A stretch of 64,000 bases of DNA from a virus. Location of the stretch: positions 1 to 64,000 of the IMG/VR virus record IMGVR_UViG_3300049846_001316. One strand, given 5' to 3'. This document shows, piece after piece, positions 6,036-56,536 of this stretch. Each line of letters begins with the position of its first letter. Within the stretch, counting starts at the first letter, position 1. The notes beneath the pieces are model-generated. The model was not told the origin of the DNA, made no database searches, and saw only the letters and a program-made list of their open reading frames with translations. The position numbers and the translations under genes were made by a program.

Positions 6036-6340
6036 GCACCAAGCGACGACCGATCATGCCGCACGAAGTCATTTCCTCGGCGCCGATCAATCAGTGGGCG
6101 GTCGCCACCGTCGAGTTCAGGGTCGGGGAGACGTTCGGGCTCCCGGACGGGGCGATCCCCCTGAGCTTCTCCGCGATGGACGCGAAGAACAACCACTACA
6201 TCATGACGTTCATCGTGAAAGTGCCACAGTGCGGGACGTGCTACGACCAAGGCTGGATCCCCGATGGCTACGGAGACGCCGAACACCAGAACGACACGCG
6301 CCCGTGCCCGGACTGTGAACTCGGCAAGGAGTCCACGTGA
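6032..6340 (+). CDS. Hypothetical protein with C-terminal zinc finger
   Basis: ATGA-coupled; CGTCYDQG...CPDC. Confidence 0.65.
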   Translation: MSTKRRPIMPHEVISSAPINQWAVATVEFRVGETFGLPDGAIPLSFSAMDAKNNHYIMTFIVKVPQCGTCYDQGWIPDGYGDAEHQNDTRPCPDCELGKEST

Positions 6341-6600
6341 CCGACGCCAACATCACCCAAGCCGTCGAGTTCAAGATCAATGACCCGGCGTACGCTCCGT
6401 GGGTCATCCGGATCGCCCGCGATCGCGGGCTCTCGCGCGACGAGTCCCGTGAGGCGCTCGAGCTGCTTCGGGAGTGGCTGCGAGCCAACCACAACGTCCG
6501 TCTCAACCTGAGCCCGGTGCACCTAGGCTGGGCCATCAACGAGCTCGACTTCATCTGTGATCGCATCATCGACAACCGCGGAGGTCCCGGTGTTCACTAA
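6337..6600 (+). CDS. Hypothetical protein
   Basis: AAGGAG RBS, GTGA overlap, 87 aa. Confidence 0.65.
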   Translation: MTDANITQAVEFKINDPAYAPWVIRIARDRGLSRDESREALELLREWLRANHNVRLNLSPVHLGWAINELDFICDRIIDNRGGPGVH

Positions 6601-14210: not shown

Positions 14211-16108
14211 GCGACTTCGTATCGTGTGATCTTCTTGGCGTCGAGCGTTTCCTCGATCGCTCCAACTGCGATCAACGCCTTCATGGCTCGCATCATCAAC
14301 TCGGCGTTGAACCGCTTCGGCAGGTTCTTGCGGATGTCGGAGCCGCTGGGGCTCCGCCCGTAGGTGGCCTTGAAGCTCGCGATCGTCTCCTTGATCGAGT
14401 CGCAGCAGTCCTCGAACGGTCCGAACCCGATGCTCTGGTCGGTCACTTGATACGTGTGGATCAGGTACGGGATGAGCTTCGCCGCCCGGTTGATGAGGTC
14501 CGCTTCGACGAGAGTCTGCTTCCGCTCGTTGATGGCGAGGATCAGCACGATCTTCTTGAACAGCAGGTCGAGGCGCTCCATCACCGCCGAGTCCTCGTGG
14601 TCGAGGTTCGGGAAGATGTCGTGGTACACCACATCGGTGAACCGGTCGAGCGCATCGTCGTGGAGCTTCACGAGGCGGGGAGAGCACCACCCTCGCAACT
14701 GCGAGAGCCGCTCTGCTGCCAGTGTCGTGTCGGGTTCTTCCTTGGCGAGTACCACACGAGGCTTCTCGATCGCCTTGGCGAAGATCCACCGGTTCACGAA
14801 TCCGGAGTCCACGTCGGTCCGGGTGAGCAGTTCACGGATGGCCTTCGGCTGTGTGGAGCTGATGACCTGACCGAAGTGATGATCGGCGCGAGCGATGCCA
14901 TGCGTCCGGCTCCGCAAGCTCAAGGTGCTGTCGGAGTCGAACATGTTCATGATCGTGGACTTGAGGGTGTTGCCCTGCCGAGAGGCCCGGACACTGAAGT
15001 CGGTGAACTCCCCGAACTTGATGAGCCCCCGCACCCCCGCGTAGCCGACGATGACTCCGGGGCTCATGTCGTCGTGGACCGGCTTGCAGAAGGCGTCGAT
15101 GAGAGCTTCACCCGATGCGGGGATCTCGGTGAGCATCGTGCCAGTGCTGTCGGGATCATCATGGTCGTAGGGGAGTGCGCTCTCGAGCAGACTCATCAGC
15201 CGACCGATCGCACGGGACTTCCTCGAGCCCGAGGAGCCGAGCAGGCAGACCATGAGATTCGCACGCACGCGTGGCGAGTCCATGAGCATGACGTTGTTCC
15301 CGGCGGCGGTGGCGACGGCCATCATGCCGAGCCACCACATGTACTCGTTGGGCTCGTCGCTGTCGGCGGCGAGCGTCATCCACTCGTGGAGGAAGGTGCC
15401 CTCCGGAACGATCTCCCGCCACGGGATCGACACCTTCATCGGGTCGTAGCCCGGTGCCACGGTCATGCTCCGGCCGAACGGACCGGAGATCACGACCGCA
15501 TCCTCCTCGGCGGGTTCCGAGTCGGAGTCCTTGCTGGCGGTTGCCGGCGAGCTCGCCGGCTCCTCGTCGAGCTCCTCCTCGACTTCCGGGTCGGCATCGT
15601 CGGGGGTCACTGCGATCTTGGAACCACCGAGTGTGGTCCGGATGACCACTCCCAGGTCGCGTGCCATCTGCTCGCGCAGCTTCGGGAACTGACTCGCTTC
15701 CTTGTAGCCCGGCACGGGCATCCCGAACTTGTAGGCGGCGATGTCGTACTTGTCTCCGCCCTCCTGGCAGGTTCCGCAGAACCAAGTGCCCTTGTCGAGG
15801 TTGAGCCACGCACTCGGGTGCGAATCGCGGTGGTCCGGCTTCGGACACGACACCATGATCGACTCGCGCTTACCCTTGGGGTCGGGCTCGCTCTTTCCGC
15901 ACCAACGCCGGTACGCCTCGAGAATGTTTACCCGGTCGATGATCGGGGTAAGGGCATCCTCGCGGGCCTCCGGCTCCGGGACGACCGGGATCAAGTCGTC
16001 GTCCCAGGTGGACTCCGGTTCGGGCGCAGACTCCTGCTTGGGGGCGGACTTCGCCGCCTCCATGCGTGCGCGGAGTTCTGCGTCGAGGTCGCTCACCCGA
16101 GCGTCCAC
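14207..16108 (-). CDS. Primase-associated helicase-like protein: CHC2-like Zn finger plus DUF3987-type P-loop domain
   Basis: CPKPDHRDSHPS...WFCGTCQEGGD Zn finger; acidic linker; LLGSSGSRKS Walker A, SGEAL, SSTQP, DSGFVNRW. Confidence 0.75.
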   Translation of the reverse strand: MDARVSDLDAELRARMEAAKSAPKQESAPEPESTWDDDLIPVVPEPEAREDALTPIIDRVNILEAYRRWCGKSEPDPKGKRESIMVSCPKPDHRDSHPSAWLNLDKGTWFCGTCQEGGDKYDIAAYKFGMPVPGYKEASQFPKLREQMARDLGVVIRTTLGGSKIAVTPDDADPEVEEELDEEPASSPATASKDSDSEPAEEDAVVISGPFGRSMTVAPGYDPMKVSIPWREIVPEGTFLHEWMTLAADSDEPNEYMWWLGMMAVATAAGNNVMLMDSPRVRANLMVCLLGSSGSRKSRAIGRLMSLLESALPYDHDDPDSTGTMLTEIPASGEALIDAFCKPVHDDMSPGVIVGYAGVRGLIKFGEFTDFSVRASRQGNTLKSTIMNMFDSDSTLSLRSRTHGIARADHHFGQVISSTQPKAIRELLTRTDVDSGFVNRWIFAKAIEKPRVVLAKEEPDTTLAAERLSQLRGWCSPRLVKLHDDALDRFTDVVYHDIFPNLDHEDSAVMERLDLLFKKIVLILAINERKQTLVEADLINRAAKLIPYLIHTYQVTDQSIGFGPFEDCCDSIKETIASFKATYGRSPSGSDIRKNLPKRFNAELMMRAMKALIAVGAIEETLDAKKITRYEVA

Positions 16109-16827
16109 GGGAGGTCCGAACCGGCCATGGCCGTCTCGGGGTCCTGCTCCGTGAACGTCGTGGGGGGCGGACTCGTCTTGATGAAGAAGGTCCGCTCACC
16201 GCTCTTGCGGTTGATCCCCAGCGGCAACCGCATGAGGTTGCCGAGATCCTTGCCTTCGAGGGACGCCTGCTTCGGGAACGTCTCGACCTCGACGGTCGGG
16301 AACGTCCCGGAAGGGTCCCGAAAGAAGTTCGTACCGCGACTGGGCTCCCAGCCGAAATGCTCCATCGTCGCTTGCGCCATGAACATCGCCACGTCCGCGC
16401 CGATGCCCTCCCCCGGTAGTGCGTACACGTGCAGCCCCTTGTTGCCTGAGTAGTGGACAGCGACAGGGAGGCTCGTGAGCTTGTGCAGTCGGACGGCGAA
16501 CCCGGTCGCGAGAAGTTGAAGATGCATAGTGAGGCGATCCGACAGCTCGTGGTCGGTGCGCCAAATGTCCCGTGGGACGATCAGGTCGCCGTCGACCTCA
16601 ACCTCGTGGTTCACGAGATCCAGGTCGAGGGCGATCACCCTCGTCTTCCCTTCGGGGGAAACGAGATAATGCCCGAGCGACACCTTCCCGGAAAGATGAT
16701 CCCGGATGTCGCTCATTGTCCAAGGTGTCCGGTCGGGACGGTACGAGCCGTCCGCATTCTGGACCGCCTTGACGTCACGGCGCTCGATGAAAGTCTTTCC
16801 GAGCAGGGCCGCAAGCTCCGTGGGCAT
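16093..16827 (-). CDS. Archaeo-eukaryotic primase (TOTE-type AEP catalytic domain)
   Basis: HLSGKVSLGHY, IALDLD (motif I), SGNKGLHVY (motif II), ETFPKQ...GNLMRLPLG; GGAGG RBS. Confidence 0.8.
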   Translation of the reverse strand: MPTELAALLGKTFIERRDVKAVQNADGSYRPDRTPWTMSDIRDHLSGKVSLGHYLVSPEGKTRVIALDLDLVNHEVEVDGDLIVPRDIWRTDHELSDRLTMHLQLLATGFAVRLHKLTSLPVAVHYSGNKGLHVYALPGEGIGADVAMFMAQATMEHFGWEPSRGTNFFRDPSGTFPTVEVETFPKQASLEGKDLGNLMRLPLGINRKSGERTFFIKTSPPPTTFTEQDPETAMAGSDLPWTLG

Positions 16828-17079: not shown

Positions 17080-18489
17080 ATGGAGACGCAGGTATGGGCT
17101 CGAAACCCACTCAAGTGCGTACGCGAAGCATTCGAGGTCGGCATCACGAACTTGGTGTGGGATGCCTCGTTCTTGCTCGCCAAGGACATCTACCCCGACT
17201 CGTACATCCTCGATCAGTGCGGCGCCGGCGCGGACTACCTCAACCTCGTGGTCGGGGAGGAGTGGGCTTCGCTCTACCTCCCGATGATGCACGACAAGCA
17301 GAAGCCGAGTGCGACCTGGCCGGTCTGGACTCCGGACTCGCCGGGCGGGATGGACTACCTCGAGGAGCTGCTGGCGCACCCGGTCGCGCAGGATGAGGAA
17401 CTCTGCGCATCACTTCCGGCAACGCAGCGCCCCAAGAAGGATCAACCCAACCTCGTGGTGATCGACCACTTGCCGGACCTAGGTACAACACTCGGCCGGC
17501 GAGTGGTCTACCTCCTAAACGAAGTGCAGAAGGGGCACCCTCACGCCGCGCTGCACATCCACGGCAGCTACTCCTGGCGCACGCTGTTCGGGCTCACGTT
17601 CCCCTCGGTCGACTTTGAGTTCTTCGAGGGTGCTCGCAAGGGAACCGTCTTCCTGCCCAACGGTCGAATGCTCAAGGGTCTGAGCAAAGATCAGAGCGCA
17701 GCCAAGCGACACCAGAAGTGGGTCGAGCTCTGTGGCCACGAGATCAGCAGTCTCGCGATCCCTCGAGAGCGGTGCCTCTACCAGATGCGCGCCGCGCAGT
17801 GGGCGGCGAAGCACTACAAGGAGAACGTGAACTTCCGGGTGTCCGGGAAGGAAGACCCTGATCCCGATGACCCCAACTCGCCCCCCTCGGATGGCCACGA
17901 TGAGACAGCCAGTCGGCTCTCACGTGACCGTGCAGGTATGGTCGAGGGCGACAAGTTCCTCTGCGATGTATGCTCCGTGCAGTCGACCTGCAAGTACTTT
18001 CGCTCCGGGGGGGTGTGTTCGATTCCTGACACTGAGCCGGCACGCCTAGCGAACTTGTTCCAGACCCGTGACGCCGACACGATCGTCACCGCTCTCGGAA
18101 CCCTGCTATCTACTCACAGCAACCGGCTCGAGCGCGCCCTCGAGGAGGAGACGGCGCTCGGCGGCAACGATGGCCCCCTCGACCCCGAAGTCACCAAGCT
18201 CATCAACTCCGTGTTCGACCGCGGCGTGGAGCTGGCCAAGCTCCTGAACCCGGAGCTACGGGCTCCCCGTGGGCGCCCGGTGACGGTCGGCGTGCAGGTC
18301 AACAACGGCAGCGCCGCAGGGGCGGTGGCCGGAGCCACTCCGCAGGCCGCAGTCGCGGCGGTCTATGCCGAACTCGAGGGTCGTGGGATCTCCCGCGACC
18401 AGATCACACCGGAGATGGTGGCGGGCCTGCTCACCCAGCGCGCTTCCGCGGTCGACGTCGCGGCGCTCCCCGGCGTGGTGGTCGAGTGA
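17080..18489 (+). CDS. Protein at the small-terminase position; degenerate TGT/DpdA-like N-terminal domain, Cys4 cluster, helical C-terminus
   Basis: ATG at 17080; WPVW...LHIHG...FPSVDF...GTVFLPNG pattern; CDVCSVQSTC...C; GTGA-coupled to TerL. Confidence 0.55.
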   Translation: METQVWARNPLKCVREAFEVGITNLVWDASFLLAKDIYPDSYILDQCGAGADYLNLVVGEEWASLYLPMMHDKQKPSATWPVWTPDSPGGMDYLEELLAHPVAQDEELCASLPATQRPKKDQPNLVVIDHLPDLGTTLGRRVVYLLNEVQKGHPHAALHIHGSYSWRTLFGLTFPSVDFEFFEGARKGTVFLPNGRMLKGLSKDQSAAKRHQKWVELCGHEISSLAIPRERCLYQMRAAQWAAKHYKENVNFRVSGKEDPDPDDPNSPPSDGHDETASRLSRDRAGMVEGDKFLCDVCSVQSTCKYFRSGGVCSIPDTEPARLANLFQTRDADTIVTALGTLLSTHSNRLERALEEETALGGNDGPLDPEVTKLINSVFDRGVELAKLLNPELRAPRGRPVTVGVQVNNGSAAGAVAGATPQAAVAAVYAELEGRGISRDQITPEMVAGLLTQRASAVDVAALPGVVVE

Positions 18490-20300
18490 CCTCCGTCGAC
18501 CCGGCCAAGATTGCTGCCGAGGCGAAGTGGCTCAGTGAGCATCCCGACTTCCTTGAGCGACCGGCGACCATCGAGGAGTTCCTCGGTCCCGACTACCTCA
18601 ACATCCGGGAGCGGATGCGTGAGCGCATCGTCGATGAGCTCGTCACGATCATCGGTGACGAGGTGGACGGCGAGCGCATCACCAAGTACCCGCTGGCGAT
18701 GATCACGGGCGGCATCGGCATCGGCAAGACCACTGTCGCATCGGTCGTGCTCCCGTACCTCGTGCACTGGTGCTTGTGCCTCAAGGACCCGCAGGGCTTC
18801 TTCGGGTTGCTGCCCGGTACCCGCATCGCGTTCATGCAGATGTCGACCTCCGAGGGTCAGGCCCTTGAAGTCGTGTTCGGTGACATCAAGGCTCGCATGG
18901 AGCATTCGCCGTGGTTCAAGAACCACCCCACCGACCCGAAGTTCAAGAACCAGATCCGGTTCCCGGACAAGGACATCTGGATCATCCCCGGTGACTCGGC
19001 CGAGACGACGTTCGAGGGGTACAACATCCTCGGCGGAATCCTCGACGAGGCCGACTCACACAAGGTCACCGAGAACAAGGACTACGCCGACCAGGGCTAC
19101 GACACGATCTCGAACCGCATCAGTTCCCGGTTCCAAGACCGCGGCTTCCTGCTCGTCATCGGGCAGATGAAGAGCGCCACTGGATTCGCTTCCCGCAAGT
19201 TCCGGGAGTTCAGCGGCCGGGACGACGCGCACGCCGTCCGCCTCACGATTTGGGAGGCGATGGGCAAGGACTTCTACCGGGACAAGGTGACCGGCGAATA
19301 CGAGACGTTCCACTACGACACCAAGCGGAAGCAGATCGTCCCGTCCGGCGTGGCTGGCCTACTCAGCAGCGAGAGCATCCTCGAGATCCCCAAGGTCTAC
19401 GAGAAGGAGTTCGTCAACAACCCGGAGAAGGCGCTCAAGGACCTTGCCGGCGTCCCGCCCGTCGTGGGCGATCCGTTCATCAGCCTCGTGTTCAAGATCG
19501 AAGAGGCGATCGAGCGATGGGAGAAGTCTCACGACGGACTGCCCAACCCCTGCAACGAGAAGGGCGTGTTCGAGCGGTGGTTCACCGCCCGAGACAGCGT
19601 GCCGCGGGTTGCGCACCTCGACATCGCGTACTCCGCCGAGGGCGACGCGCTCGGGCTCGCGATGGGTCACGTCAAGGGCGTGGTGGACATCGACGGCGAG
19701 ATGAAGCCGTACATCGTCATCGACTTCGTGATGAGGCTCAAGGCCCCCGCCGGCGGCGAGATCTTCCTGGCCGACGTTCGGCACAAGATCTACGCCCTCA
19801 AGAACGACATGAAGTTCAAGCTCAAGAAGGTCACCATGGACGGCTTCCAGTCCACCGACACGGAGCAGCAGCTCCGCAAGCGTCGGTACGACACGGAGTA
19901 CGTCTCGGTCGACAAGGACCTTCTGCCCTACTACGACCTGAGAGAGGCGATCTACGAGGATCGCATCGAGATCCCTCCCCTGTGGGTTAGTCTCCGGCCA
20001 GGTGAATCGGAGAAGGTCAACATCCCGGCCAAGGAACTCTCCGAGCTCGTGGACAACGGAAAGAAGATCGACCACCCTGAGGGAGGGTCAAAAGACGTAG
20101 CAGACTGCCTCGCTGGCATCACGTTCACGCTCATGGGTGACCGGTCCTATCGCCGCAAGGTGACACGCCTGGATGCCTACCGTCAGCAAGAGCGCGTGGC
20201 AGCGGCAGTCGGTGGAATCCAACACCCAGCACTCCGTGGCCCCGGAACCATGTCTGCTCCCGTGCCGCCGAGTCTGATCGACTGGAGAAACCAGAGTTGA
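18486..20300 (+). CDS. terL: Terminase large subunit
   Basis: Walker A GGIGIGKT, Walker B GILDEAD, nuclease HLDIA, DGFQS, KDVADC. Confidence 0.93.
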   Translation: MTSVDPAKIAAEAKWLSEHPDFLERPATIEEFLGPDYLNIRERMRERIVDELVTIIGDEVDGERITKYPLAMITGGIGIGKTTVASVVLPYLVHWCLCLKDPQGFFGLLPGTRIAFMQMSTSEGQALEVVFGDIKARMEHSPWFKNHPTDPKFKNQIRFPDKDIWIIPGDSAETTFEGYNILGGILDEADSHKVTENKDYADQGYDTISNRISSRFQDRGFLLVIGQMKSATGFASRKFREFSGRDDAHAVRLTIWEAMGKDFYRDKVTGEYETFHYDTKRKQIVPSGVAGLLSSESILEIPKVYEKEFVNNPEKALKDLAGVPPVVGDPFISLVFKIEEAIERWEKSHDGLPNPCNEKGVFERWFTARDSVPRVAHLDIAYSAEGDALGLAMGHVKGVVDIDGEMKPYIVIDFVMRLKAPAGGEIFLADVRHKIYALKNDMKFKLKKVTMDGFQSTDTEQQLRKRRYDTEYVSVDKDLLPYYDLREAIYEDRIEIPPLWVSLRPGESEKVNIPAKELSELVDNGKKIDHPEGGSKDVADCLAGITFTLMGDRSYRRKVTRLDAYRQQERVAAAVGGIQHPALRGPGTMSAPVPPSLIDWRNQS

Positions 20301-49790: not shown

Positions 49791-50891
49791 TCAGGCGCTC
49801 TGAGCGGCCAGATCGGTGTAGGCGTCGATCCAGTCGCTCCAACGCTGCCTCACGTCAAGCTGGGCCACGGAGACGAGCCCTTCGGCGCCGATCCGCTCCC
49901 GCTCCGCGGGGTCCGCGAGGCGCTCTAGGTGCTTTGTCCAATCTGCCGGTTTCCGAGCGAGCAGCCCGAGGCCATGCTCCCGGTGGAGCCATTCGTACTC
50001 CGGGGTGGCCTGCGCCACGAACGGGATGCCCGAGGCGGCGTACTCCATCCCCTTGATCGAGCTCTTGGCCAGGTTGAAGGGCGAGTTCGACAGCGGCACG
50101 AGTCCGATGTTGATGCCCTCGAACAACTCGGGGTACCGCTCGATGCCGCACATGGGCTTTGTGAAGACCCGCGCGCCACCCGGCAGCTTCATCGCCGCCT
50201 CGATCGAAGTGGCGGTCGGCCGGGGGTCGTGCCCTCCGTGGTAGAGACGTGCTCTCGGGTGACGAGCCAAGAACTGCTTCACCGCCCACCCGATCGTTTC
50301 GAGATCTCCGGACCGGAATCCAGTTGCTCCGACCCAGCCCAAGTGCGGCTCGCCGGCGAGCGGCTGTGGTGTCCACCGCTCCAAGTCGATGGCGTTGCGC
50401 ACCACCGCGATCGGCTTGTCCGGGAACTTCTGCTGGTACCGCTCCTTCAAGTACGGAGTGCTCACTGTGATGGCGCTTGAGGCAGCGATGTTGCGCTGAT
50501 AGAACTCCCGATTCGATCTCGGGTTGTGGTGCGGGTGAGTCGCTTTCCAGGCGTAGTTCCGCGGGTCGAGTCCGGGATACCAGTCGTCGATGTCTTGGAT
50601 GACGATTTGCCCGTACGCTCGAGCGCGGAGGAGCCCCTTGACTCCATCTTCCATCCATCGTTGGATGACGATGACGTCGAACCCGTCGAACTCGTTGCCT
50701 TCCCAGTCAACGAGCACGAGTTCACCACTCGGCCGCTGGTTCACCGCACCGAACTGCCGGGTGTAGATCCCGTTCAACCGAAGTTGCCGGGACGGGAGTC
50801 CGATGCGGTACCAGCCGGCTCCGCCCAGGGTGGGGTGGCCTTCTGCGTCTCGCGTGTTGGAGTAGTCGACGGTCGCGAAGCCGATCTTCAC
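49791..50891 (-). CDS. GT-B fold (GT4-like) glycosyltransferase
   Basis: QDIDDW, ITVSTPYL, VVRNAID, IGLVPL...FNLAKSSIKGMEYAASGIPFVA. Confidence 0.88.
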   Translation of the reverse strand: MKIGFATVDYSNTRDAEGHPTLGGAGWYRIGLPSRQLRLNGIYTRQFGAVNQRPSGELVLVDWEGNEFDGFDVIVIQRWMEDGVKGLLRARAYGQIVIQDIDDWYPGLDPRNYAWKATHPHHNPRSNREFYQRNIAASSAITVSTPYLKERYQQKFPDKPIAVVRNAIDLERWTPQPLAGEPHLGWVGATGFRSGDLETIGWAVKQFLARHPRARLYHGGHDPRPTATSIEAAMKLPGGARVFTKPMCGIERYPELFEGINIGLVPLSNSPFNLAKSSIKGMEYAASGIPFVAQATPEYEWLHREHGLGLLARKPADWTKHLERLADPAERERIGAEGLVSVAQLDVRQRWSDWIDAYTDLAAQSA

Positions 50892-51010
50892 CGCACGAAT
50901 CTCCAAACGACGAAGATCACAAGGCCGACCGCGGCGTACACGCCGAGTGAGATCATGCAGCCGTTGTACAAGCCGCGCGCCTCACGGAGAGGGTCCTTGA
51001 GTTCGTCCAT
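50888..51010 (-). CDS. Small membrane protein (40 aa)
   Basis: MDELKDPLREARGLYNGCMISLGVYAAVGLVIFVVWRFVR; overlap-coupled at both ends. Confidence 0.5.
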   Translation of the reverse strand: MDELKDPLREARGLYNGCMISLGVYAAVGLVIFVVWRFVR

Positions 51011-51180
51011 CAGTACGTATGGATCTTCACGAACTTGCCGCCCATGTGCGAGCTGCCGTCCTGACAGAGGCGGACTTCACGGATCTCGCGCATCGCGGTC
51101 GGGGAGACTCCCACCATGACCTGCGCGCCGTCGTGCTCGTTGATGTCCATGAGCGCCTGGATCAACTCGTCGATGTTCAC
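51010..51180 (-). CDS. Small hypothetical protein
   Basis: GTGA-coupled; VNIDELIQALMDI... Confidence 0.55.
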   Translation of the reverse strand: MNIDELIQALMDINEHDGAQVMVGVSPTAMREIREVRLCQDGSSHMGGKFVKIHTY

Positions 51181-51890
51181 CGCTTCATTCCCCCATACTT
51201 CTTGTTGAATCGAACAAGGTCGTCGTACTTGGTCTGGTGGAGCTCTGGTACCTGTTGGGCAGAGTATTCGCCCATGTGGTCGACCGGAAGTCCGGTCACG
51301 ATGGCGGGCTTGGCGCCGGCGATCTCGAGTTGACGCACGAGGTCGTCGTCTCCGCACCACCACTCGAACTGCGGGTCCACGAAGGGCACTCCGCGCGTGG
51401 TGTGCCACTCCGCGGCGAACATGAAGGCCCAGCCGCAGATCCCGTGGTTGCGGTAGGTCCCGCGCACGAGATCAGGCCCGTGGTGCACCGAGTGCGCCGA
51501 CAGCGGAAGTCGGTAGTCCGGGCACACGATCCCGCGATCCGGGTCAGCTCGCAGCTCCTCTGCCAGAGGAGCGAGGAACTCCTGAGTCGGAATCGTGATG
51601 TCGTCGTTGAGGAACGCGAGATTGATCTCCTCGTCCGGGTACGACTCCAGCAGCATCGACCAGGCGAAGTTCCACATCCCGTAGAGGTCGTGATGTAGGT
51701 GCGCCGGAGGATGCCAGACTTCGAGCTTCGGGTCGCGCTCGTCCTCGGGCAGCCAATGGCGGAGGCGCTGATCGTCGGTGTCATCGAGAACGATGACGAG
51801 ATCGTGCTCGTCCAGATAGCGCAGGTCCACGAGGAGTTGGCGGAACGTGTCCGGGACGAACCGAGTCGGGATGGCAGCGATTGTTTTCAC
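51177..51890 (-). CDS. GT-A fold (GT2-like) glycosyltransferase
   Basis: IAAIPT, VIVLDD, AFLNDDI, GWAFMF, WWCGDDDL. Confidence 0.85.
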   Translation of the reverse strand: MKTIAAIPTRFVPDTFRQLLVDLRYLDEHDLVIVLDDTDDQRLRHWLPEDERDPKLEVWHPPAHLHHDLYGMWNFAWSMLLESYPDEEINLAFLNDDITIPTQEFLAPLAEELRADPDRGIVCPDYRLPLSAHSVHHGPDLVRGTYRNHGICGWAFMFAAEWHTTRGVPFVDPQFEWWCGDDDLVRQLEIAGAKPAIVTGLPVDHMGEYSAQQVPELHQTKYDDLVRFNKKYGGMKR

Positions 51891-52345
51891 TCTTCATCCT
51901 CCCCAAACTCGGTGCCGCACCAGTCGCAGCGGTCGTGGGTCCACGAGTGGTTGCAGTGGTGGCCGCACGGACGCTTGCTCTCCGGGCACTCGTTGAGTGG
52001 GTACGTCTCGTGCGTCGGGTCTTCGGTGCAGGTGTCGCAGGACTCGGAGTCATCGCTCACCTCGTCGATCTGGGCCGGCACCTCGTCGACCTCGGGTTCC
52101 TCCTCGATCCGAGTGCGCGAGTTCCGGTGCTCGAAGCCGTCCTCCTTCGCAGAGTTGACGATCTGCTTGGCAACGACTTCGATTGCTTCCCGGTCGGACG
52201 GGTTGAGCACGAGTCCACCCGCCATGCGGCGGGCGAGCTCGATGCTCGGAACGTGGCCCTGCGCGGCGCACTCGCAGATGTCCGATCCGCACGAGTGGTG
52301 ATTCAGCGACCCGCAGTGGCCGCAGATGTACAGGTTCTTCTTCAC
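51887..52345 (-). CDS. Cys/His-rich hypothetical protein
   Basis: GTG at 52345; metal-binding-like clusters at both ends (CGHC...C..C.C; C..C...CGHHCNHSW...CDWC). Confidence 0.6.
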   Translation of the reverse strand: MKKNLYICGHCGSLNHHSCGSDICECAAQGHVPSIELARRMAGGLVLNPSDREAIEVVAKQIVNSAKEDGFEHRNSRTRIEEEPEVDEVPAQIDEVSDDSESCDTCTEDPTHETYPLNECPESKRPCGHHCNHSWTHDRCDWCGTEFGEDEE

Positions 52346-52614
52346 GCTTCCTCGCACTCCCCTTCCAGGTTCTCCTCGTCCTCGCAGGTGCAGATGCTCT
52401 GGTTGTGAGTCAAGCACCACTGGAACGGGTAGGCCATCTTCTTCTCGGGTTCGGGGAGCACGCGCAGGCGCATGATCTCGACGGGATTCTCCTCGTCGGT
52501 CAGCATGTCCTCGATGTCACCCCAGTCGTTCTCGCCGTAGCAGGCGAAGAACGTGTACTCACCGATGTCCTCGCCATCGGCGCGCATGACGATGTGGCTC
52601 GGGATCTTCCTCAT
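52342..52614 (-). CDS. Hypothetical protein
   Basis: ATGA-coupled acidic ORF MRKIPSHIVMR... Confidence 0.55.
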   Translation of the reverse strand: MRKIPSHIVMRADGEDIGEYTFFACYGENDWGDIEDMLTDEENPVEIMRLRVLPEPEKKMAYPFQWCLTHNQSICTCEDEENLEGECEEA

Positions 52615-53387
52615 CGGTAGTACGTCCTGTCCGCGTCGCGCTCCTCGACTCCGACGAGGGGCTCGACGTGGGTGCCCACGACGTCGTGCCGCACCCACGT
52701 CTGGCCGAATCCGAACTCCTGCGCGTCGGCCTGGAAGCACGGATCGTCGGTCGAGCCGGACTGCAAGTCCCAACGCCACCGCATCTTCCGGAACACGTCT
52801 CGACGCACCATCATGAACCCGGCGGTCGTCCAGTGCTCCTGGAGATCCATGTCCCGGTACTCCGGGTTCGGGACCTTCGGCCCGGAGTGCGCGTAGTTCG
52901 GCACGTGCCCGCAGACGATCCCGTGGTCGACCTCGAGGAGTCGGTTCACCGAGTCGGCCGGCACGCTGGTGTCGGTGTCGATGAACAGGATGTGCGAGAT
53001 GCTGAAGTCCGACTGCGCGTACTCGTGGGCGAGGTTGCGTCCGGCGCAGATGCGGTGCAGCCGACTCCGGCCGTCGAACTCCTGGATCAGATCATCGACC
53101 CGGAACTGCCACGTCACCACGTCCCACGCGGGGTCGGCCGCAGCCTTGACCTCGCACAGACGATCTTCGAGCGCGTCGTACGGCTCCATGCCGCGGCCGT
53201 CGACCTCGGCGGCGAGGAAGTGGGTCAGGCGGATGCCCGCGTCCTCGGCACGCATCAGGCGTTCCTCGGCGCGGTCGAGCCACGCCAGCTCACCGACGCC
53301 GTTGCACTTCCACGGCGCGCACGTGGTCGCAACGAGCACGTGCGGTGTCTCAGGCGGTGGCGTTCGTACGATGTCCACGAGGGTCAT
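52611..53387 (-). CDS. GT-A fold glycosyltransferase
   Basis: GRNLA, HILFIDTD (DxD), AGFMMVRRDVF, DDPCF. Confidence 0.82.
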   Translation of the reverse strand: MTLVDIVRTPPPETPHVLVATTCAPWKCNGVGELAWLDRAEERLMRAEDAGIRLTHFLAAEVDGRGMEPYDALEDRLCEVKAAADPAWDVVTWQFRVDDLIQEFDGRSRLHRICAGRNLAHEYAQSDFSISHILFIDTDTSVPADSVNRLLEVDHGIVCGHVPNYAHSGPKVPNPEYRDMDLQEHWTTAGFMMVRRDVFRKMRWRWDLQSGSTDDPCFQADAQEFGFGQTWVRHDVVGTHVEPLVGVEERDADRTYYR

Positions 53388-53398
53388 GAGGGTCCTTC

Positions 53399-54010
53399 CT
53401 AGGTCCAGAGATTGAACTCGGGGTTGGCTTGGTTTCTATCGAGCCACCGGAGCAGCTTGGGGAGATTCGTGTCGGGGCCGAAGCCAAGGTAGGTGCCGTC
53501 CGCGGTCGCGCACCCCAGCGAGTCGGCGTACTTGAGGCGGCTGAACGAGTTGACCCGGCCCATGTGGACCGGCATCCCCCGCCGCACGCCCTCGGTGATC
53601 AGTGCCCGAGCATCGGGACTGAGCTTCCATTCGGTCGAGCCGCCAATGAAGAGGGTGTGCGCCTCGTCCCACGGGATCGACTCGATGGTGGCACCGTCTT
53701 GCAGAACGATCGCGCGTGGCCACGCGTGGAGGTAGTCGCACCAGTCCCGCCACGACGCGAGTGTCGCTTCCCAGTCGTACAGGACGTCAGGGACAGCCAC
53801 GAAGAGACAGCCCGCCATGAACGGGCGATACGCCTCGAGAGCAGAAAGATACGCGTCCTCGTCGAAGCCCGCGTACGCACCGTTGTCGAGTCCCCACTTC
53901 CACCCGTGGCGGACCTTGTTACGGGTCGCAGGGGTGACGAACGCACCGAGTGTGCCTTCGGTGATGAGGCCCTTGACCACATCGTTATGCGGAGTCACGA
54001 GGTACAGCAC
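53399..54010 (-). CDS. TGT-fold guanine transglycosylase-like (DpdA-like) protein
   Basis: GLDNGAY, VPDVLYD, IVLQDG, LFIGGSTEWK, VHMGRVNS, ADGT; adjacent to QueF-L-like and YhhQ genes; GTG at 54010. Confidence 0.75.
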   Translation of the reverse strand: MLYLVTPHNDVVKGLITEGTLGAFVTPATRNKVRHGWKWGLDNGAYAGFDEDAYLSALEAYRPFMAGCLFVAVPDVLYDWEATLASWRDWCDYLHAWPRAIVLQDGATIESIPWDEAHTLFIGGSTEWKLSPDARALITEGVRRGMPVHMGRVNSFSRLKYADSLGCATADGTYLGFGPDTNLPKLLRWLDRNQANPEFNLWT

Positions 54011-54263
54011 ACTCGATCCCCATGCCGGCGGTTGACCACTCGGTCGTGATGTCCGCGTGCGGGTAGTAGTTGTGGAGCTCGGCGGTGAGTCGCTCGTGGG
54101 TGATCCTGCGAGCAGCAAACTCGTCGAGGTGGGTGCGGAGATCATGGAACTCAATCTCTCCGTCGTCCGGGTTGTACGTGAGGGTGACCGTGCCGTAGTC
54201 CGTCTCGTCTCGGAAGGGGCACAGGTGAACGATGGGTGCGGTCACACGGACTTGCAGGTTCAT
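53985..54263 (-). CDS. QueF-like T-fold protein, QueF-L (amidinotransferase) type
   Basis: 92 aa; LCPFRDETDYG (Cys, Asp), TYNP, ITHE; lacks the ExK(S/A)LKLY NADPH motif of reductase QueF (has EFHDLRTHL). Confidence 0.75.
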   Translation of the reverse strand: MNLQVRVTAPIVHLCPFRDETDYGTVTLTYNPDDGEIEFHDLRTHLDEFAARRITHERLTAELHNYYPHADITTEWSTAGMGIECAVPRDSA

Positions 54264-54799
54264 GCGACTGCCCGCCGGCGAAGTCGGAACGGAGCGATGA
54301 CGATGAGCGCCGGGAGGATCATGAGGGTCTTGAGCCAGAACTGGCCCCACAGAAAGTCGAGCGAGTGGAAGGCGAGCCAGAGGAACACCACCGAGTCGAC
54401 CAGGCTCCCGACCGTGTTCGAGAGCACCACGCCCCACGTCCACTTGCCTCGCTCCGCGAGCGGCGTGTACACCGCCCAGTCGAGTCCTTCCCCGAGCAGG
54501 AACGCGCACCCCGACGCCCACGCCAGAGACGGGGCAACGAGGTAGGACAGCGCGGCGCCGACCACGATGGCAGCGGCGATCTTCCACTTGCCGAGGGCGA
54601 GCTGGGCGCCGTCCCGCAGACTGAACGACAGACCGACGAACAGGACCCCACTCGGGGCCGTCCACGGGCCGATCGTGACGGTGTGCGGACCGCCGGGGAA
54701 CGGCACGGTGCCCCAGTGCTGGATGGCGTAGTTGGCGAGGAAGATGCACCCGATGAATCCGGCGAGGCAGATCCACCCGAGCTTGCGGTTGAGGGTCAT
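54260..54799 (-). CDS. yhhQ: VUT/YhhQ family 7-deazaguanine (preQ0/preQ1) transporter
   Basis: Multi-TM; FLAN, PSGVLFVGLSFSLRD, ASGCAFLLGEGLDWAVY, SNTVGSLVDSVVFLWLAF; AGGAG RBS. Confidence 0.88.
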   Translation of the reverse strand: MTLNRKLGWICLAGFIGCIFLANYAIQHWGTVPFPGGPHTVTIGPWTAPSGVLFVGLSFSLRDGAQLALGKWKIAAAIVVGAALSYLVAPSLAWASGCAFLLGEGLDWAVYTPLAERGKWTWGVVLSNTVGSLVDSVVFLWLAFHSLDFLWGQFWLKTLMILPALIVIAPFRLRRRAVA

Positions 54800-54806
54800 G
54801 GTTCTC

Positions 54807-55388
54807 CTATTGCTTCCAGGCGAGGGCCTGCACGTCCCCGCGGTGAAGTGTGTTGATCTCGTGACGAGCGAAGTTGTAGAGGAGCGTGTCCTCGAGTGCC
54901 TTGGGGTCGACGTTGGCGTAGTACTCCACTCCGTGCGGAACGAACGTCTCTGATCCCCGTGGGCCGGGGTCATCCGTGAGGAACTTGTCCGTGTACTCCT
55001 CGGGCTCCATGTTGTGCCCGTCCACGGCTGAGTGCGGAGCCCGCGGGTCGCACGCCGCGGTCATGATCGCGATGCCGTCGACCTTGAGGAACTTCGCCAT
55101 GTTGGCGACGATGTTGCGCCACTCGGGAGTGTGCTCGAAGACCTCGAGGCACAGCACCACGTCGAACGTGAGATCGCGCGCCGTCGTCCAAGTGGCAGCG
55201 TTGCCCACGTGGTCGACTCCGGGACCGGGCACGATGTCGACGCCCATGTACTCGGCGTCGGGGAACAGATCCCGGACACCGCCGTTGATGTCGAGGGAAC
55301 CGAACTCGAGCACGCTGAGTCCCTTCCACGACTTGAGGTTGCACCGCTTCACAGCGGCCTCCACGAACCATCGACACTCCGCGTGCAT
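54807..55388 (-). CDS. Class I SAM-dependent methyltransferase (small-molecule/glycan type)
   Basis: VLEFGSLDINGG, YMGVDIVPGPGVD, FDVVLCLEVFEH. Confidence 0.85.
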   Translation of the reverse strand: MHAECRWFVEAAVKRCNLKSWKGLSVLEFGSLDINGGVRDLFPDAEYMGVDIVPGPGVDHVGNAATWTTARDLTFDVVLCLEVFEHTPEWRNIVANMAKFLKVDGIAIMTAACDPRAPHSAVDGHNMEPEEYTDKFLTDDPGPRGSETFVPHGVEYYANVDPKALEDTLLYNFARHEINTLHRGDVQALAWKQ

Positions 55389-56536
55389 CAGGACTCCTTC
55401 TCGAGCTTGGTGATTGGCTTCACCTTGAGGGTTGGGTTCCCGAACCCCTGCCGGATGGAGGCACGGAGTTCGTTCTTCTGATCGAGCGACAGTTCGTCGC
55501 CCTTGAGCAAGTCGTCGATGTCGCCCAGGTTCAGCTTGCCGTAACGCGACATGATCTCAGGGCCGACGATCTCCGAGACGGTGAGCGGGTCGACGTTGCG
55601 ACGGGAAGAGGCGGTTACCGTGATCCGGTTCGACTCGCCCTCGAGTTCCATCAGCCCTTCCTCCTCCATCACCTTGAGGAGGTGGGTGCGGATCTCGTCG
55701 GCCGCAGTCTCGGCAGCCTTCTTCACGTACTCCAGTTCGGAGAGGCGGTCCGCCATCTGCTCCGGCGGCAGCGACAGGACGCCGCCCATGTTCTCCACCA
55801 TGCGGACCGAGCGGCACACGTGGTTGCGGACGCAGTACCGGCAGTTCGGGCCGAGCTTCTCTTCCTTGCCGTCCGAGGCGAGGATGCGGTCGAGCGTGCG
55901 CTTGAGATAGCTCCACGTCTCCAGCAGTTCGTCGCGGGTGTAACTGATCGAGATGGGCTCCCACCGCAGCAGATCGAACGTGATCCAGATGCGGGGCGCG
56001 TCCGGGTACAGGATCGCTGCCGCGAGTCCGTACATGCGCGCCTGGATGCGATGCTTGAGATCGCCGGGCTGCATCGGCGCCATGTACGTCTTGTAGTCGA
56101 CGACCTCGATGTTGCCGTTGTCGAGTCGGTCGCACCGGTCGAAGATGTAGTTGAACGGGACCTCAAGCCCGGACGTGCTCTTGACCGGGAAGCTCAACTT
56201 CTGCTCGGCCGCGAGGACCGTGCGGCCCTCCCAGTCCTGTCGGACGTACCACTTCTTCAGGAGGTCGACGCCCTCCTGCCGGCGTCCGTCGTGGGAGAAG
56301 AGCTTGTCGTACTCCTCGTGCCAGAACCCCTCCATCACCGAGAACGGAGTCTGGGGGTCAGTCTTGTAGAGCTCACCGACGACCCAACGCTCGAGCACGG
56401 AGTGGCATCCGGTGCCGAAGTTGGCGGCTTCGCCGGAGTCTCGGGGGGGCCGGTCACCGATGTACTTGGCGGCGTATCCGGCGGGGCAATCCTCGAAGTC
56501 TTGGATCGCGGTCGCGGAGAGAGAACGTGGCTTCAA
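55388..56536 (-). CDS. Cas4/RecB-like PD-(D/E)XK exonuclease
   Basis: LSATAI..F..CP, GTGCHSVLE, FDRCD...VVDYKT, QARMY, CRYCVRNHVC. Confidence 0.88.
   Translation of the reverse strand: MKPRSLSATAIQDFEDCPAGYAAKYIGDRPPRDSGEAANFGTGCHSVLERWVVGELYKTDPQTPFSVMEGFWHEEYDKLFSHDGRRQEGVDLLKKWYVRQDWEGRTVLAAEQKLSFPVKSTSGLEVPFNYIFDRCDRLDNGNIEVVDYKTYMAPMQPGDLKHRIQARMYGLAAAILYPDAPRIWITFDLLRWEPISISYTRDELLETWSYLKRTLDRILASDGKEEKLGPNCRYCVRNHVCRSVRMVENMGGVLSLPPEQMADRLSELEYVKKAAETAADEIRTHLLKVMEEEGLMELEGESNRITVTASSRRNVDPLTVSEIVGPEIMSRYGKLNLGDIDDLLKGDELSLDQKNELRASIRQGFGNPTLKVKPITKLEKES

What the first reader, a model, noticed from the sequence alone, without database searches (positions are those of the whole stretch)
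53399..54799. Salvage-only 7-deazaguanine DNA-modification cassette: YhhQ transporter + QueF-L-like + TGT/DpdA-like
Seen: three overlapping - strand genes encoding a VUT/YhhQ transporter, a 92-aa T-fold protein with QueF catalytic Cys/Asp/HE but no NADPH motif, and a compact 203-aa TGT-fold protein. No folE/queD/queE/queC gene is in the window. Established: YhhQ imports preQ0/preQ1, DpdA swaps guanine for 7-deazaguanines in DNA, and QueF-L converts preQ0 to archaeosine. Inference: the phage imports an environmental precursor rather than making it and installs dG+ or a relative to resist restriction. Modification would then depend on metabolites from other community members.
Basis: partly seen in the sequence, partly recalled or inferred. 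Interest (0 to 1): 0.85.

Follow-up and report, generated by a model that had tools for sequence, protein, structure and literature searches.

The report
Phage deazaguanine salvage-and-insert gene trio
A complete 78-kb actinobacterial-type phage carries three coupled genes (importer, small QueF-like enzyme, minimal DNA base-swapping enzyme) that most likely write a scavenged 7-deazaguanine base into its DNA without making the precursor: a compact, little-described variant of a known anti-restriction system.

Summary
At 53399-54799 (- strand) lie three translationally coupled genes: a 179-aa YhhQ/VUT-like membrane protein, a 92-aa T-fold protein and a 203-aa TIM-barrel protein. The whole 78,169-bp genome (CheckV 100%) has no QueC, QueD, QueE, FolE or canonical TGT.

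Comparative evidence:
- The same trio occurs in cultured Arthrobacter phage Aoka (gp38-40), five IMG/VR contigs and two actinomycete genomes.
- Natural mini-DpdA::QueF-like fusions exist.
- A YhhQ-like gene abuts mini-DpdA in 56 of 80 viral loci. None of the 31 such records tested has QueC, against 6 of 16 without the neighbour (p = 7e-4).

Verdict: a salvage-fed 7-deazaguanine DNA-modification module, a new variant of a known kind. The product (dG+, dADG, dPreQ1 or dPreQ0), the DNA target and the environmental origin of the base are inferred, not shown. This scan has noted similar salvage cassettes in other genomes.

The parts
54260..54799 (-). YhhQ/VUT-family (COG1738-like) membrane protein, 179 aa; putative importer of preQ0 or a related 7-deazaguanine base
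   Evidence: Pfam Vut_1 at 33.1 bits (cut-off 27.2), covering profile positions 65-145 of 152. phrog_4899 at 3e-32. TIGR00697 queuosine precursor transporter at 28.3 bits, below its cut-off of 50.95. At least 5 hydrophobic segments. 37-48% identity to phage 'VUT family' or 'membrane' proteins that sit beside mini-DpdA in Aoka gp38, cluster P mycobacteriophages, ReqiPine5 gp04 and CRP-701.
53985..54263 (-). QueF-like T-fold protein, 92 aa, QueF-L structural type; putative nitrile-tailoring or preQ0-capturing enzyme
53399..54010 (-). Minimal DpdA-like (TGT-superfamily) TIM barrel, 203 aa, no zinc subdomain; putative DNA guanine/7-deazaguanine transglycosylase
   Evidence: AF2 model with pLDDT 93.7, an 8-stranded alpha/beta barrel. 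Profile-profile hhalign to the actinophage DpdA family gives 96.7% probability, E 3.9e-10, over 143 columns. Invariant D42(xxxY/F46), D75, Q104, G123-G124 and D171 lie at the C-terminal ends of strands. They match the order and spacing of Salmonella DpdA D95/F99, D130, H181, G206-G207 and D256. 40-44% identity to SEA-PHAGES 'DpdA-like tRNA-guanine transglycosylase' proteins. phrog_15826 at 1.6e-51. No Pfam TGT hit.

Best explanation
The three genes form one translationally coupled unit that gives the phage 7-deazaguanine-modified DNA without any precursor synthesis.

Step 1 (inferred from family membership): the YhhQ-like membrane protein brings preQ0 (7-cyano-7-deazaguanine) or a close relative into the infected cell.

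Step 2 (inferred from conserved residues and fold): the 92-aa QueF-like T-fold protein attacks the nitrile with Cys15 to form a thioimide, helped by Asp22 and His56/Glu57.
- It lacks both lysines of the QueF NADPH motif and is structurally closest to QueF-L. The thioimide is therefore more likely resolved by ammonia or water (giving the G+ or ADG base) than by hydride (giving preQ1). It may also simply trap the scarce base.
- It keeps Glu38, the counterpart of the QueF residue that binds N9-H. It therefore probably handles the free base before insertion.

Step 3 (inferred from remote homology and conserved catalytic Asp residues): the minimal, zinc-less DpdA-like barrel exchanges guanine in phage DNA for that base. 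The expected outcome is resistance to host restriction.

Shown here: the gene identities, the absence of synthesis genes, the conserved synteny, the fusions and the YhhQ/QueC exclusivity.

Not shown: any transport, chemistry or DNA modification.
For: Gene identities:
- YhhQ-like.
- QueF-like.
- Mini-DpdA: with reference residues from PMC10164549.

Operon structure: 4-nt and 26-nt overlaps, and no Rfam hit, promoter-like or convincing terminator-like site between the genes.

No QueC, QueD, QueE, FolE or TGT in the complete genome.

Functional linkage:
- Natural fusions mini-DpdA::QueF-like, P0137 (347 aa) and P0253 (343 aa).
- The same YhhQ / QueF-like / mini-DpdA order in Arthrobacter phage Aoka gp38-40, whose 36.7-kb genome has no annotated que genes.
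- The same order in IMG/VR loci L014, L025, L028, L039 and L064.
- The same order in Nocardia farcinica and an Actinomycetes MAG.

Salvage logic:
- A YhhQ-like gene abuts mini-DpdA in 56 of 80 viral loci and 38 of 80 genome loci.
- Pfam QueC was found in 0 of 31 YhhQ-linked viral records and in 6 of 16 without the neighbour, Fisher p = 7.5e-4.

Literature context:
- QueF-L forms the same thioimide and uses NH4+ (PMC5485725).
- B. subtilis QueF Glu78 contacts the pyrrole N9 (PMC13740343).
Against: - No member of this mini-DpdA family, and no member of the 92-aa QueF-like family, has been tested in any paper I found.
- hhalign places the invariant Asp of canonical DpdA three residues upstream of the invariant D171.
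- 20 of 22 actinomycete genomes whose mini-DpdA has no YhhQ neighbour also lack a real QueC, and 18 of the 22 lack any Vut_1 gene. The family can therefore exist with no visible deazaguanine supply, and its substrate may not always be a deazaguanine.
- Mycobacterium phage Orion, which carries only DpdA, had no modification when grown on M. smegmatis.
- The host of this phage is unknown. A trio-bearing Nocardia host has QueC, so environmental origin of the base is not required.
- QueF-like is present in only 7 of 80 viral and 3 of 80 genome mini-DpdA loci, so it is an accessory part and not essential.
Confidence: 0.65

Rival explanations
1. The order proposed by the first reader. Mini-DpdA inserts imported preQ0 into DNA first. 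The QueF-like protein then acts on DNA-bound dPreQ0 as a true QueF-L-type amidinotransferase, giving dG+ (2'-deoxyarchaeosine).
For: The closest solved structure and the closest profile match are QueF-L, not QueF. QueF-L acts on nucleic-acid-bound preQ0 and uses NH4+. The fusion to mini-DpdA would place the T-fold domain on DNA. All characterised DpdAs were said to insert preQ0 (PMC10516641).
Against: Near-invariant Glu38 aligns with QueF Glu78, which binds N9-H of the free base. P. calidifontis QueF-L has Ala at that position (alignment). Gene order is importer, then QueF-like, then DpdA. VH7D DpdA2 does insert preQ1 and CDG, so phage DpdAs can take bases that were tailored beforehand. Identity to QueF-L is only 20%.
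Confidence: 0.25
2. The QueF-like protein is still a nitrile reductase with a non-canonical cofactor site. It makes preQ1, and the DNA ends up with dPreQ1 or a derivative.
For: Phage proteins that HHpred called QueF-L proved to be QueF-type (Dp-1 and HVTV-1 DNA carry dPreQ1; phiSM and VH7D queF complement an E. coli queF mutant). The family consensus ELHxLxx(Y/F/W) keeps the Glu, the hydrophobic position and the aromatic position of the QueF motif. Glu38 is QueF-like. A SAM methyltransferase lies directly upstream.
Against: Both motif lysines are lost: His40 is near-invariant and the second position is variable. The roughly 40 N-terminal residues of unimodular QueF are missing. All validated phage QueFs kept the full NADPH motif. 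The protein scores below the Pfam and NCBIfam QueF cut-offs. The upstream methyltransferase never recurs beside mini-DpdA in 160 other loci.
Confidence: 0.15
3. The base comes from the host, not the environment. The phage YhhQ-like protein only tops up or redistributes a host preQ0 or preQ1 pool, so modification does not depend on other community members.
For: Salmonella phage 7-11 and Pantoea phage MED16 carry only DpdA and are modified with dADG. The Nocardia farcinica genome that carries the trio has a full-length QueC (8.6e-74) and a canonical YhhQ (3.7e-49). In CAjan the yhhQ deletion had no effect on modification.
Against: Only 10 of 48 actinomycete genomes carrying mini-DpdA have a real QueC. 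Mycobacteria lack the pathway. YhhQ adjacency is strictly complementary to phage QueC, which is what one expects if the transporter replaces synthesis.
Confidence: 0.3
4. The module modifies RNA (host tRNA) rather than phage DNA, or the barrel is not a transglycosylase at all and the trio salvages a different base or cofactor.
For: There is no experimental datum for this family. The fold score does not separate TGT from other TIM barrels. Many Streptomyces mini-DpdA loci have no visible deazaguanine supply. VUT-family transporters are a broad 'vitamin uptake' family.
Against: hhalign gives 96.7% to phage DpdA, with the D-x-G-x-F, xDV and GG motifs aligned. The QueF-like active site is specific for a nitrile-bearing 7-deazaguanine. 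The phage has no tRNA genes. The barrel lacks the zinc subdomain and the insertions that TGTs use to grip tRNA. The family sits in phage replication and DNA-methylase neighbourhoods.
Confidence: 0.1

Closest known systems
Phage DpdA 7-deazaguanine DNA-modification clusters with full synthesis (Escherichia phage CAjan and other Seuratvirus: FolE, QueD, QueE, QueC, YhhQ, DpdA; dPreQ0 in DNA). Hutinet 2019 PMC6884629; Kot 2020 PMC7544227.
   Same: A YhhQ-type transporter gene sits next to a TGT-superfamily base-exchange enzyme in a phage, with the presumed purpose of resisting restriction.
   Different: This phage has no synthesis genes. The transglycosylase is a 203-aa zinc-less barrel, related to canonical phage DpdA only at the profile-profile level. 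A QueF-like protein lies between transporter and transglycosylase. In CAjan the transporter is dispensable; here it would be the only phage-encoded supply.
'Group 3' phages that carry only DpdA (Mycobacterium phage Orion, Salmonella phage 7-11, Pantoea phage MED16). PMC6884629, PMC8306585.
   Same: There are no preQ0 or G+ synthesis genes in the phage. Dependence on host or exogenous precursor was already proposed for this group.
   Different: Those phages carry canonical DpdA1 and no linked transporter or QueF-like gene. Orion was unmodified. 7-11 and MED16 carry trace to low levels of dADG.
Archaeal QueF-L (archaeosine synthase, Pyrobaculum calidifontis; PDB 5jyx, 5k0p). PMC5485725.
   Same: Same T-fold and similar size (92 against 109 aa). 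The catalytic Cys and Asp and the His-Glu pair are present. The QueF NADPH motif is absent. It is the best structural and profile match.
   Different: Identity is 20%. The window protein keeps Glu38, the QueF-type ligand for N9-H, where QueF-L has Ala. It comes from a bacterial virus, and its partner is a DNA enzyme rather than a tRNA enzyme. Its activity is untested.
[quoted passage not shown] PMC6884629, PMC10516641.
   Same: A QueF-family protein in a phage deazaguanine cluster. It was first read as QueF-L by HHpred.
   Different: Those proteins keep the full NADPH motif, align with unimodular or bimodular QueF, and are linked to dPreQ1 in phage DNA (Dp-1, HVTV-1) or complement a queF mutant (phiSM, VH7D). 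Cui 2023 states that no phage QueF aligned with QueF-L. The 92-aa family here has lost both lysines and the N-terminal segment.
Arthrobacter phage Aoka gp38-gp39-gp40 (ON755180), and the gp53-gp54 pair of cluster P mycobacteriophages such as Majeke.
   Same: Aoka has the identical gene order and families (40%, 45% and 44% identity) and no annotated que genes. Cluster P phages have the YhhQ-like plus mini-DpdA pair.
   Different: In Aoka only gp40 is named ('DpdA-like tRNA-guanine transglycosylase'); gp38 is 'membrane protein' and gp39 'hypothetical protein'. Cluster P phages lack the QueF-like gene. None has published modification data that I could find.

Membership tests
TGT/DpdA superfamily (guanine transglycosylases) | (beta/alpha)8 TIM-barrel core | tested here: met
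   The AF2 model (pLDDT 93.7) has eight strands alternating with helices. Foldseek and VIA return TIM barrels, including many TGT entries.
TGT/DpdA superfamily (guanine transglycosylases) | Detectable sequence homology to a recognised DpdA or TGT family | tested here: met
   hhalign of A1 against A4 gives 96.7% probability, E 3.9e-10, over 143 columns. A4 is the actinophage DpdA family and includes proteins named queuine tRNA-ribosyltransferase or DpdA-like in mycobacteriophages. At the HMM level there is no match to Pfam TGT PF01702 or to PDB sequences.
TGT/DpdA superfamily (guanine transglycosylases) | General acid/base Asp followed by the gating aromatic residue (Salmonella DpdA D95...F99), and a base-binding Asp (D130) | tested here: met
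   Invariant D42-N-G-x-(F/Y)46 aligns with the invariant DSGAF of canonical phage DpdA. Invariant P74-D75-V aligns with LDV. Reference residues are from PMC10164549.
TGT/DpdA superfamily (guanine transglycosylases) | Nucleophile Asp after strand 8 (Salmonella DpdA D256) | tested here: inconclusive
   Invariant D171 (DGT) lies at the end of strand 8, 47 residues after the GG loop; the spacing in Salmonella DpdA is 49. However, hhalign aligns the invariant Asp of canonical DpdA (SVDSS) with position 168, three residues upstream.
TGT/DpdA superfamily (guanine transglycosylases) | Structural zinc site CXCX2CX22H | tested here: not met
   The protein has only three scattered Cys, no CXC motif, and ends shortly after helix 8. 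The fused forms carry an unrelated CxxC...CxxC insert.
TGT/DpdA superfamily (guanine transglycosylases) | Guanine/7-deazaguanine exchange in DNA | not testable with these tools
   This needs LC-MS of DNA or a [14C]guanine exchange assay.
DpdA4 (Pfam DUF6610, PF20314) | Match to the DUF6610 profile | tested here: not met
   No Pfam family at E<=0.01 for the protein, and none among the 39 family members at E<=5.
QueF (NADPH-dependent preQ0 reductase) | T-fold with Cys nucleophile, Asp, and the His-Glu pair | tested here: met
   C15, D22 and H56-E57 align with B. subtilis C55, D62 and H96-E97. They are invariant or near-invariant in the family.
QueF (NADPH-dependent preQ0 reductase) | QueF/NADPH motif E(S/L)K(S/A)hK(L/Y)(Y/F/W) | tested here: not met
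   The window reads EFHDLRTH and the family consensus is ELHxLxx(Y/F/W). Both Lys are lost.
QueF (NADPH-dependent preQ0 reductase) | Curated family cut-offs | tested here: not met
   Pfam QueF scores 23.0 bits against a cut-off of 27.3. TIGR03139 scores 29.2 against 86.9.
QueF-L (archaeosine synthase, amidinotransferase) | Closest structural and sequence relative, with small size and no NADPH motif | tested here: met
QueF-L (archaeosine synthase, amidinotransferase) | Substrate is nucleic-acid-bound preQ0 (N9 glycosylated), so no ligand for N9-H is needed | tested here: inconclusive
   Near-invariant Glu38 aligns with QueF Glu78, the N9 ligand, and with Ala in P. calidifontis QueF-L. This points to the free base, but it rests on one QueF-L sequence and on an alignment.
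QueF-L (archaeosine synthase, amidinotransferase) | NH4+-dependent conversion of nitrile to formamidine | not testable with these tools
   This needs an enzyme assay (PMC5485725 gives the method).
YhhQ / VUT family (COG1738) 7-deazaguanine transporter | Profile match and polytopic membrane topology | tested here: met
   Pfam Vut_1 scores 33.1 bits against a 27.2 cut-off, over the C-terminal half only. At least 5 hydrophobic segments. It falls below the NCBIfam equivalog cut-offs: TIGR00697 28.3 against 50.95, and PRK11212 25.1 against 252.
YhhQ / VUT family (COG1738) 7-deazaguanine transporter | Transport of preQ0 or preQ1 | not testable with these tools
   This needs complementation of an E. 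coli yhhQ mutant or an uptake assay.
Phage 7-deazaguanine DNA-modification systems (Hutinet 2019 grouping) | Phage-encoded preQ0 synthesis (FolE, QueD, QueE, QueC) | tested here: not met
   Absent from the complete genome. The phage therefore falls with the 'DpdA-only' group, with a transporter and a QueF-like protein added.

The most novel reading that the evidence does not exclude
The 92-aa protein would be the first QueF-L-type, NADPH-independent T-fold enzyme of a bacterial virus. It would work in physical partnership with a minimal zinc-less DpdA, as the natural fusions suggest. It would capture scavenged free preQ0 as a thioimide and convert it to an amidine or amide base before, or while, that base is written into DNA. 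Whether the phage genome is protected would then depend on 7-deazapurines made by the host or by neighbouring microbes, such as actinomycetes that produce deazapurine metabolites.
Probability: 0.35. Interest if true: 0.75.

Novelty: new variant of a known kind. Interest (0 to 1): 0.6.

Why it matters
7-Deazaguanine DNA modification is an established anti-restriction strategy of phages. Described systems either make preQ0 themselves or carry DpdA alone with an unknown supply.

This locus and its relatives suggest a third, coherent layout: importer plus minimal transglycosylase, optionally with a small QueF-L-like tailoring or capture protein. The layout is common:
- A YhhQ-like gene abuts mini-DpdA in 56 of 80 viral loci.
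- The mini-DpdA family has more than 3000 homologues.
- It is frequent in actinomycete genomes.

It also appears to substitute for QueC-based synthesis.

If confirmed, this would do four things:
- Give a function to phrog_15826, phrog_4899 and an unnamed 85-120-aa protein family.
- Explain why phages such as cluster P mycobacteriophages carry a DpdA-like gene in hosts that cannot make preQ0.
- Make phage DNA modification dependent on the chemical environment.
- Add a new reaction partner for the T-fold.

A cultured phage, Arthrobacter phage Aoka, makes the idea directly testable.

Tried and rejected
**Searches that found nothing or could not be run**
- megablast of 53000-56000 against phage records: no match.
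- Word-based homologue search for the 92-aa protein found only itself. The full HMMER scan was needed.
- The search for related loci with QueF-like alignments A2 and A3 failed because the alignments are too diverse. I used the mini-DpdA alignment instead.

**HMM and fold tests that were uninformative**
- HMM-level tests of mini-DpdA against Pfam (single protein and all 39 family members) and against PDB sequences gave no TGT match. There were only weak EAL hits in 8 of 39 members.
- Fold comparison alone does not separate TGT from other TIM barrels.

**Ideas considered and set aside**
- That the flanking glycosyltransferases and the SAM methyltransferase belong to the deazaguanine pathway (a sugar-decorated base). 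None of GT 49791-50906, GT 51177-51890, ORF 52611-53387, the Cys-rich ORF 51887-52420 or MTase 54807-55388 recurs beside mini-DpdA in 160 other loci. The MTase and a GT both match one fused MTase-GT phage family, phrog_22332. The trio therefore looks like an independent module inserted among them.
- That the 469-aa ORF upstream of TerL is a second TGT-like enzyme. It has no Pfam match, and its homologues are hypothetical or TerS-annotated proteins of Gordonia phages.
- A riboswitch before the transporter. There is no Rfam hit and only a 7-nt intergenic gap.
- The expectation that host genomes with YhhQ-linked mini-DpdA lack QueC while the others have it. This was not borne out: 8 of 26 against 2 of 22 have a real QueC.
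Full report
**What is there**

The window is the first 64 kb of a 78,169-bp IMG/VR virus record that CheckV rates 100% complete. GC content is about 65%. Its large terminase is about 50% identical to those of 75-84-kb Rhodococcus and Gordonia phages, so the host is probably an actinobacterium.

Three genes lie head to tail on the - strand between 53399 and 54799, inside a long co-directional array:
- A 179-aa membrane protein, 54260-54799. An AGGAG site precedes its ATG, and it starts 7 nt after the stop of a class-I SAM methyltransferase.
- A 92-aa protein, 53985-54263. Its ATG overlaps the preceding stop as ATGA.
- A 203-aa protein, 53399-54010. It has a GTG start and overlaps the 92-aa gene by 26 nt.

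The N-terminus MLYLVTPHN of the 203-aa protein is conserved in homologues, which supports the longer start over the 193-aa gene call. No Rfam family, promoter-like site or convincing terminator separates the genes.

**The transporter**

- The 179-aa protein passes the Pfam Vut_1 gathering score (33.1 against 27.2 bits), although only over the C-terminal half of the profile.
- It matches phrog_4899 at 3e-32.
- It matches the NCBIfam queuosine-precursor transporter models, but below their cut-offs.
- It has at least five hydrophobic segments.
- Its phage relatives are annotated VUT family, DUF165, putative preQ0 transporter or merely membrane protein.

**The T-fold protein**

- Alone it scores just under the Pfam QueF cut-off (23.0 against 27.3 bits).
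- Against PDB sequences, Cys15, Asp22 and His56-Glu57 align with Cys55, Asp62 and His96-Glu97 of B. subtilis QueF, and with the equivalent residues of P. calidifontis QueF-L.
- A full HMMER scan of 1.84 billion representatives found 196 relatives, mostly 85-120 aa.
- In an alignment of 49 of them, C15, P16, E20, D22, G24 and E57 are invariant. E38, L39, H40, H56, W76 and T78-A79-G80 are nearly so.
- The AlphaFold model (pLDDT 96.4) is a classical beta-beta-alpha-alpha-beta-beta T-fold.
- Its best solved match is QueF-L. Foldseek gives E 3.4e-6, TM 0.89 and rmsd 1.7 A. Unimodular QueF follows at E 3.7e-4.
- The family profile also prefers QueF-L (E 6.1e-7) over QueF (1.9e-4 to 5e-3).

The QueF NADPH motif E(S/L)K(S/A)hK(L/Y)(Y/F/W) reads EFHDLRTH here and ELHxLxx(Y/F/W) in the family. 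Both lysines are gone, and the roughly 40 N-terminal residues of unimodular QueF are missing.

One point cuts the other way. Glu38 is the counterpart of B. subtilis Glu78, which a recent review lists as the ligand of the pyrrole N9 of free preQ0 (PMC13740343). P. calidifontis QueF-L, which works on tRNA-bound preQ0 (PMC5485725), has Ala at that position (alignment). I therefore read the protein as QueF-L-like in fold and in cofactor loss, but probably handling the free base.

**The barrel**

- It has no Pfam family but matches phrog_15826 at 1.6e-51.
- It has more than 3000 homologues of about 200 aa.
- tblastn finds 40-44% identical proteins that SEA-PHAGES annotators call 'DpdA-like tRNA-guanine transglycosylase'. 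These occur in Arthrobacter phages Sonali and Aoka and in cluster P mycobacteriophages.
- The model (pLDDT 93.7) is an eight-stranded alpha/beta barrel.

The decisive test was profile against profile. The family alignment A1, compared with A4 (39 canonical actinophage DpdA-type proteins), gives 96.7% probability, E 3.9e-10, over 143 columns. The following motifs align:
- DNG(A/C)(F/Y) with the invariant DSGAF.
- PDV with LDV.
- IGGS with xGG.
- HMG with HGLG.

The invariant residues D42 (with an aromatic four residues on), D75, Q104, G123-G124 and D171 all sit at the C-terminal ends of strands. They follow the order and spacing of D95/F99, D130, H181, G206-G207 and D256 of Salmonella DpdA, where D95 and the nucleophile Asp (D256) were assigned essential catalytic roles by mutagenesis (PMC10164549).

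Two caveats remain:
- hhalign puts the canonical invariant Asp three residues before D171.
- The zinc site of DpdA and TGT is absent.

**No precursor synthesis**

Pfam QueC, PTPS (QueD), GTP cyclohydrolase I, radical SAM and TGT profiles find nothing in the whole genome, while the controls respond. The QueC, QueD, QueE and DpdA proteins of phage Sonali find nothing by tblastn. There are no tRNA genes.

**The three genes belong together**

1. Two proteins in the representative library, P0137 (347 aa) and P0253 (343 aa), are natural fusions of a mini-DpdA domain with a C-terminal QueF-like domain.
2. The cultured Arthrobacter phage Aoka (36.7 kb) has the same three genes in the same order, gp38-39-40. 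They are annotated membrane protein, hypothetical protein and DpdA-like, and no que genes are annotated anywhere in the genome.
3. Among the 80 IMG/VR loci most similar in mini-DpdA, a YhhQ-like gene abuts the start of mini-DpdA in 56. A QueF-like gene lies directly upstream in 7. Five loci have the full trio.
4. Among 80 loci in cellular genomes, almost all Actinomycetota, 38 have the YhhQ neighbour and two have the trio: Nocardia farcinica and an Actinomycetes MAG.
5. On a mini-DpdA tree, the QueF-linked copies fall in at least three places. The window's copy nests among pairs that lack QueF-like. The QueF-like gene is therefore a modular add-on gained more than once.

**Salvage in place of synthesis**

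Of 47 longer viral records, QueC occurs in six. All six belong to the class without a YhhQ neighbour: 0 of 31 against 6 of 16, Fisher p = 7.5e-4. This complementary pattern is what one expects if the transporter replaces the pathway.

The picture is less tidy in cellular genomes:
- A real QueC is present in only 10 of 48 actinomycete genomes that carry mini-DpdA, 8 of 26 with the YhhQ neighbour and 2 of 22 without.
- 18 of the 22 without the neighbour have no Vut_1 gene at all. Many Streptomyces copies therefore have no visible supply.
- The trio-bearing Nocardia genome has both a QueC and a canonical YhhQ, so host supply cannot be excluded.

**Mechanism proposed**

Import by the YhhQ-like protein comes first. 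The QueF-like protein then captures the nitrile as a Cys15 thioimide. This is followed by NADPH-independent resolution, by ammonia to the G+ base or by water to ADG, or by simple hand-over of the base. Finally mini-DpdA exchanges guanine in phage DNA for that base.

Every chemical step is inferred. Alternatives are set out as rivals:
- Action on DNA-bound dPreQ0 as in QueF-L.
- Residual reductase activity giving dPreQ1.
- Host supply of the base.
- An RNA target, or an unrelated function.

**Relation to the literature**

- Hutinet et al. 2019 defined a large group of phages that carry only DpdA. They wrote that these could rely on host preQ0 or on uptake. [quoted passage not shown]
- Kot et al. 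2020 showed that YhhQ is dispensable in CAjan, which has the full pathway.
- Cui et al. 2023 added DpdA3 and DpdA4 and stated that no phage QueF aligned with QueF-L.
- Searches for DpdA with YhhQ, transporter, salvage, DpdA-like or DpdA5/6 found no description of the mini-DpdA/YhhQ pair, the 92-aa QueF-like family or the fusions.

The kind of system is therefore known, while this layout and two of its parts are not described in what I could search.

Earlier notes of this scan report similar salvage cassettes, some with a small QueF-like protein, in other genomes. I did not use them as evidence. One of them calls the small protein near-obligate, which does not hold for this mini-DpdA family (10 of 160 loci).

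**Surroundings**

The trio sits between a SAM methyltransferase and glycosyltransferase-like genes. Two of those match one fused MTase-GT phage family. None recurs next to mini-DpdA elsewhere, so I treat them as a separate module. Only an N6/N4 DNA methylase recurs nearby, in 24 of 160 loci.

**Limits**

The host is unknown. 

Noticed in passing
window 17080-18489 (+): A 469-aa ORF sits immediately upstream of, and coupled to, TerL (18486-20300). It has no Pfam match. Homologues at about 27% identity occur in 116 Gordonia, Tsukamurella and Rhodococcus phage records, annotated hypothetical or 'terminase small subunit'. I found no support for a TGT-like domain.
   Followed up: partly
window 16093-16827 (-): A 244-aa protein with an archaeo-eukaryotic primase domain of the TOTE conflict-system type (PF22548, E 1.6e-13). 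It lies on the opposite strand just before the terminase region.
   Followed up: no
L164 (Escherichia phage phiG7, OQ791410) 6001-6593; L001 (Arthrobacter phage Sonali) 5001-5618 and 7988-8878: Some phages with a full preQ0 pathway and a canonical DpdA also carry a mini-DpdA. In phiG7 it is split into two ORFs (phiG7_20 and phiG7_21) between the DNA polymerase genes. In Sonali it is intact (gp81), 2.4 kb from the canonical gp87. The two enzymes may not be redundant.
   Followed up: no
P0137, P0253 (metagenome proteins): The natural mini-DpdA::QueF-like fusions carry a CxxC...CxxC insert just after the GG loop of the barrel. It could be a zinc ribbon standing in for the missing TGT zinc site.
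   Followed up: no
L090-L162 (mostly Streptomyces genomes): 20 of 22 actinomycete genomes whose mini-DpdA has no YhhQ neighbour have no full-length QueC, and 18 of the 22 have no Vut_1 gene anywhere. Their base supply, and therefore their substrate, is unexplained.
   Followed up: partly
Phage records PV211009 (Roseobacter phage CRP-701) 3724-4221 and PV416405 (Erythrobacter phage ZS04) 63999-64454: Mini-DpdA homologues there are annotated 'ssDNA-binding protein' and 'DarB-like antirestriction protein', which are likely mis-annotations. In CRP-701 the gene abuts a 'VUT family protein'.
   Followed up: no
window 54807-55388 (-) and 51177-51890 (-): The SAM methyltransferase upstream of the trio and a glycosyltransferase-like gene downstream match the N- and C-terminal parts of one phage family, phrog_22332 (408 positions). 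The trio and three small ORFs appear to be inserted within a methyl/glycosyl-transferase cluster of unknown target.
   Followed up: partly
window 51887-52420 (-): A Cys/His-rich 177-aa protein with a weak DUF6788 match (E 1.6e-4, below cut-off). It lies between the glycosyltransferase-like genes.
   Followed up: no
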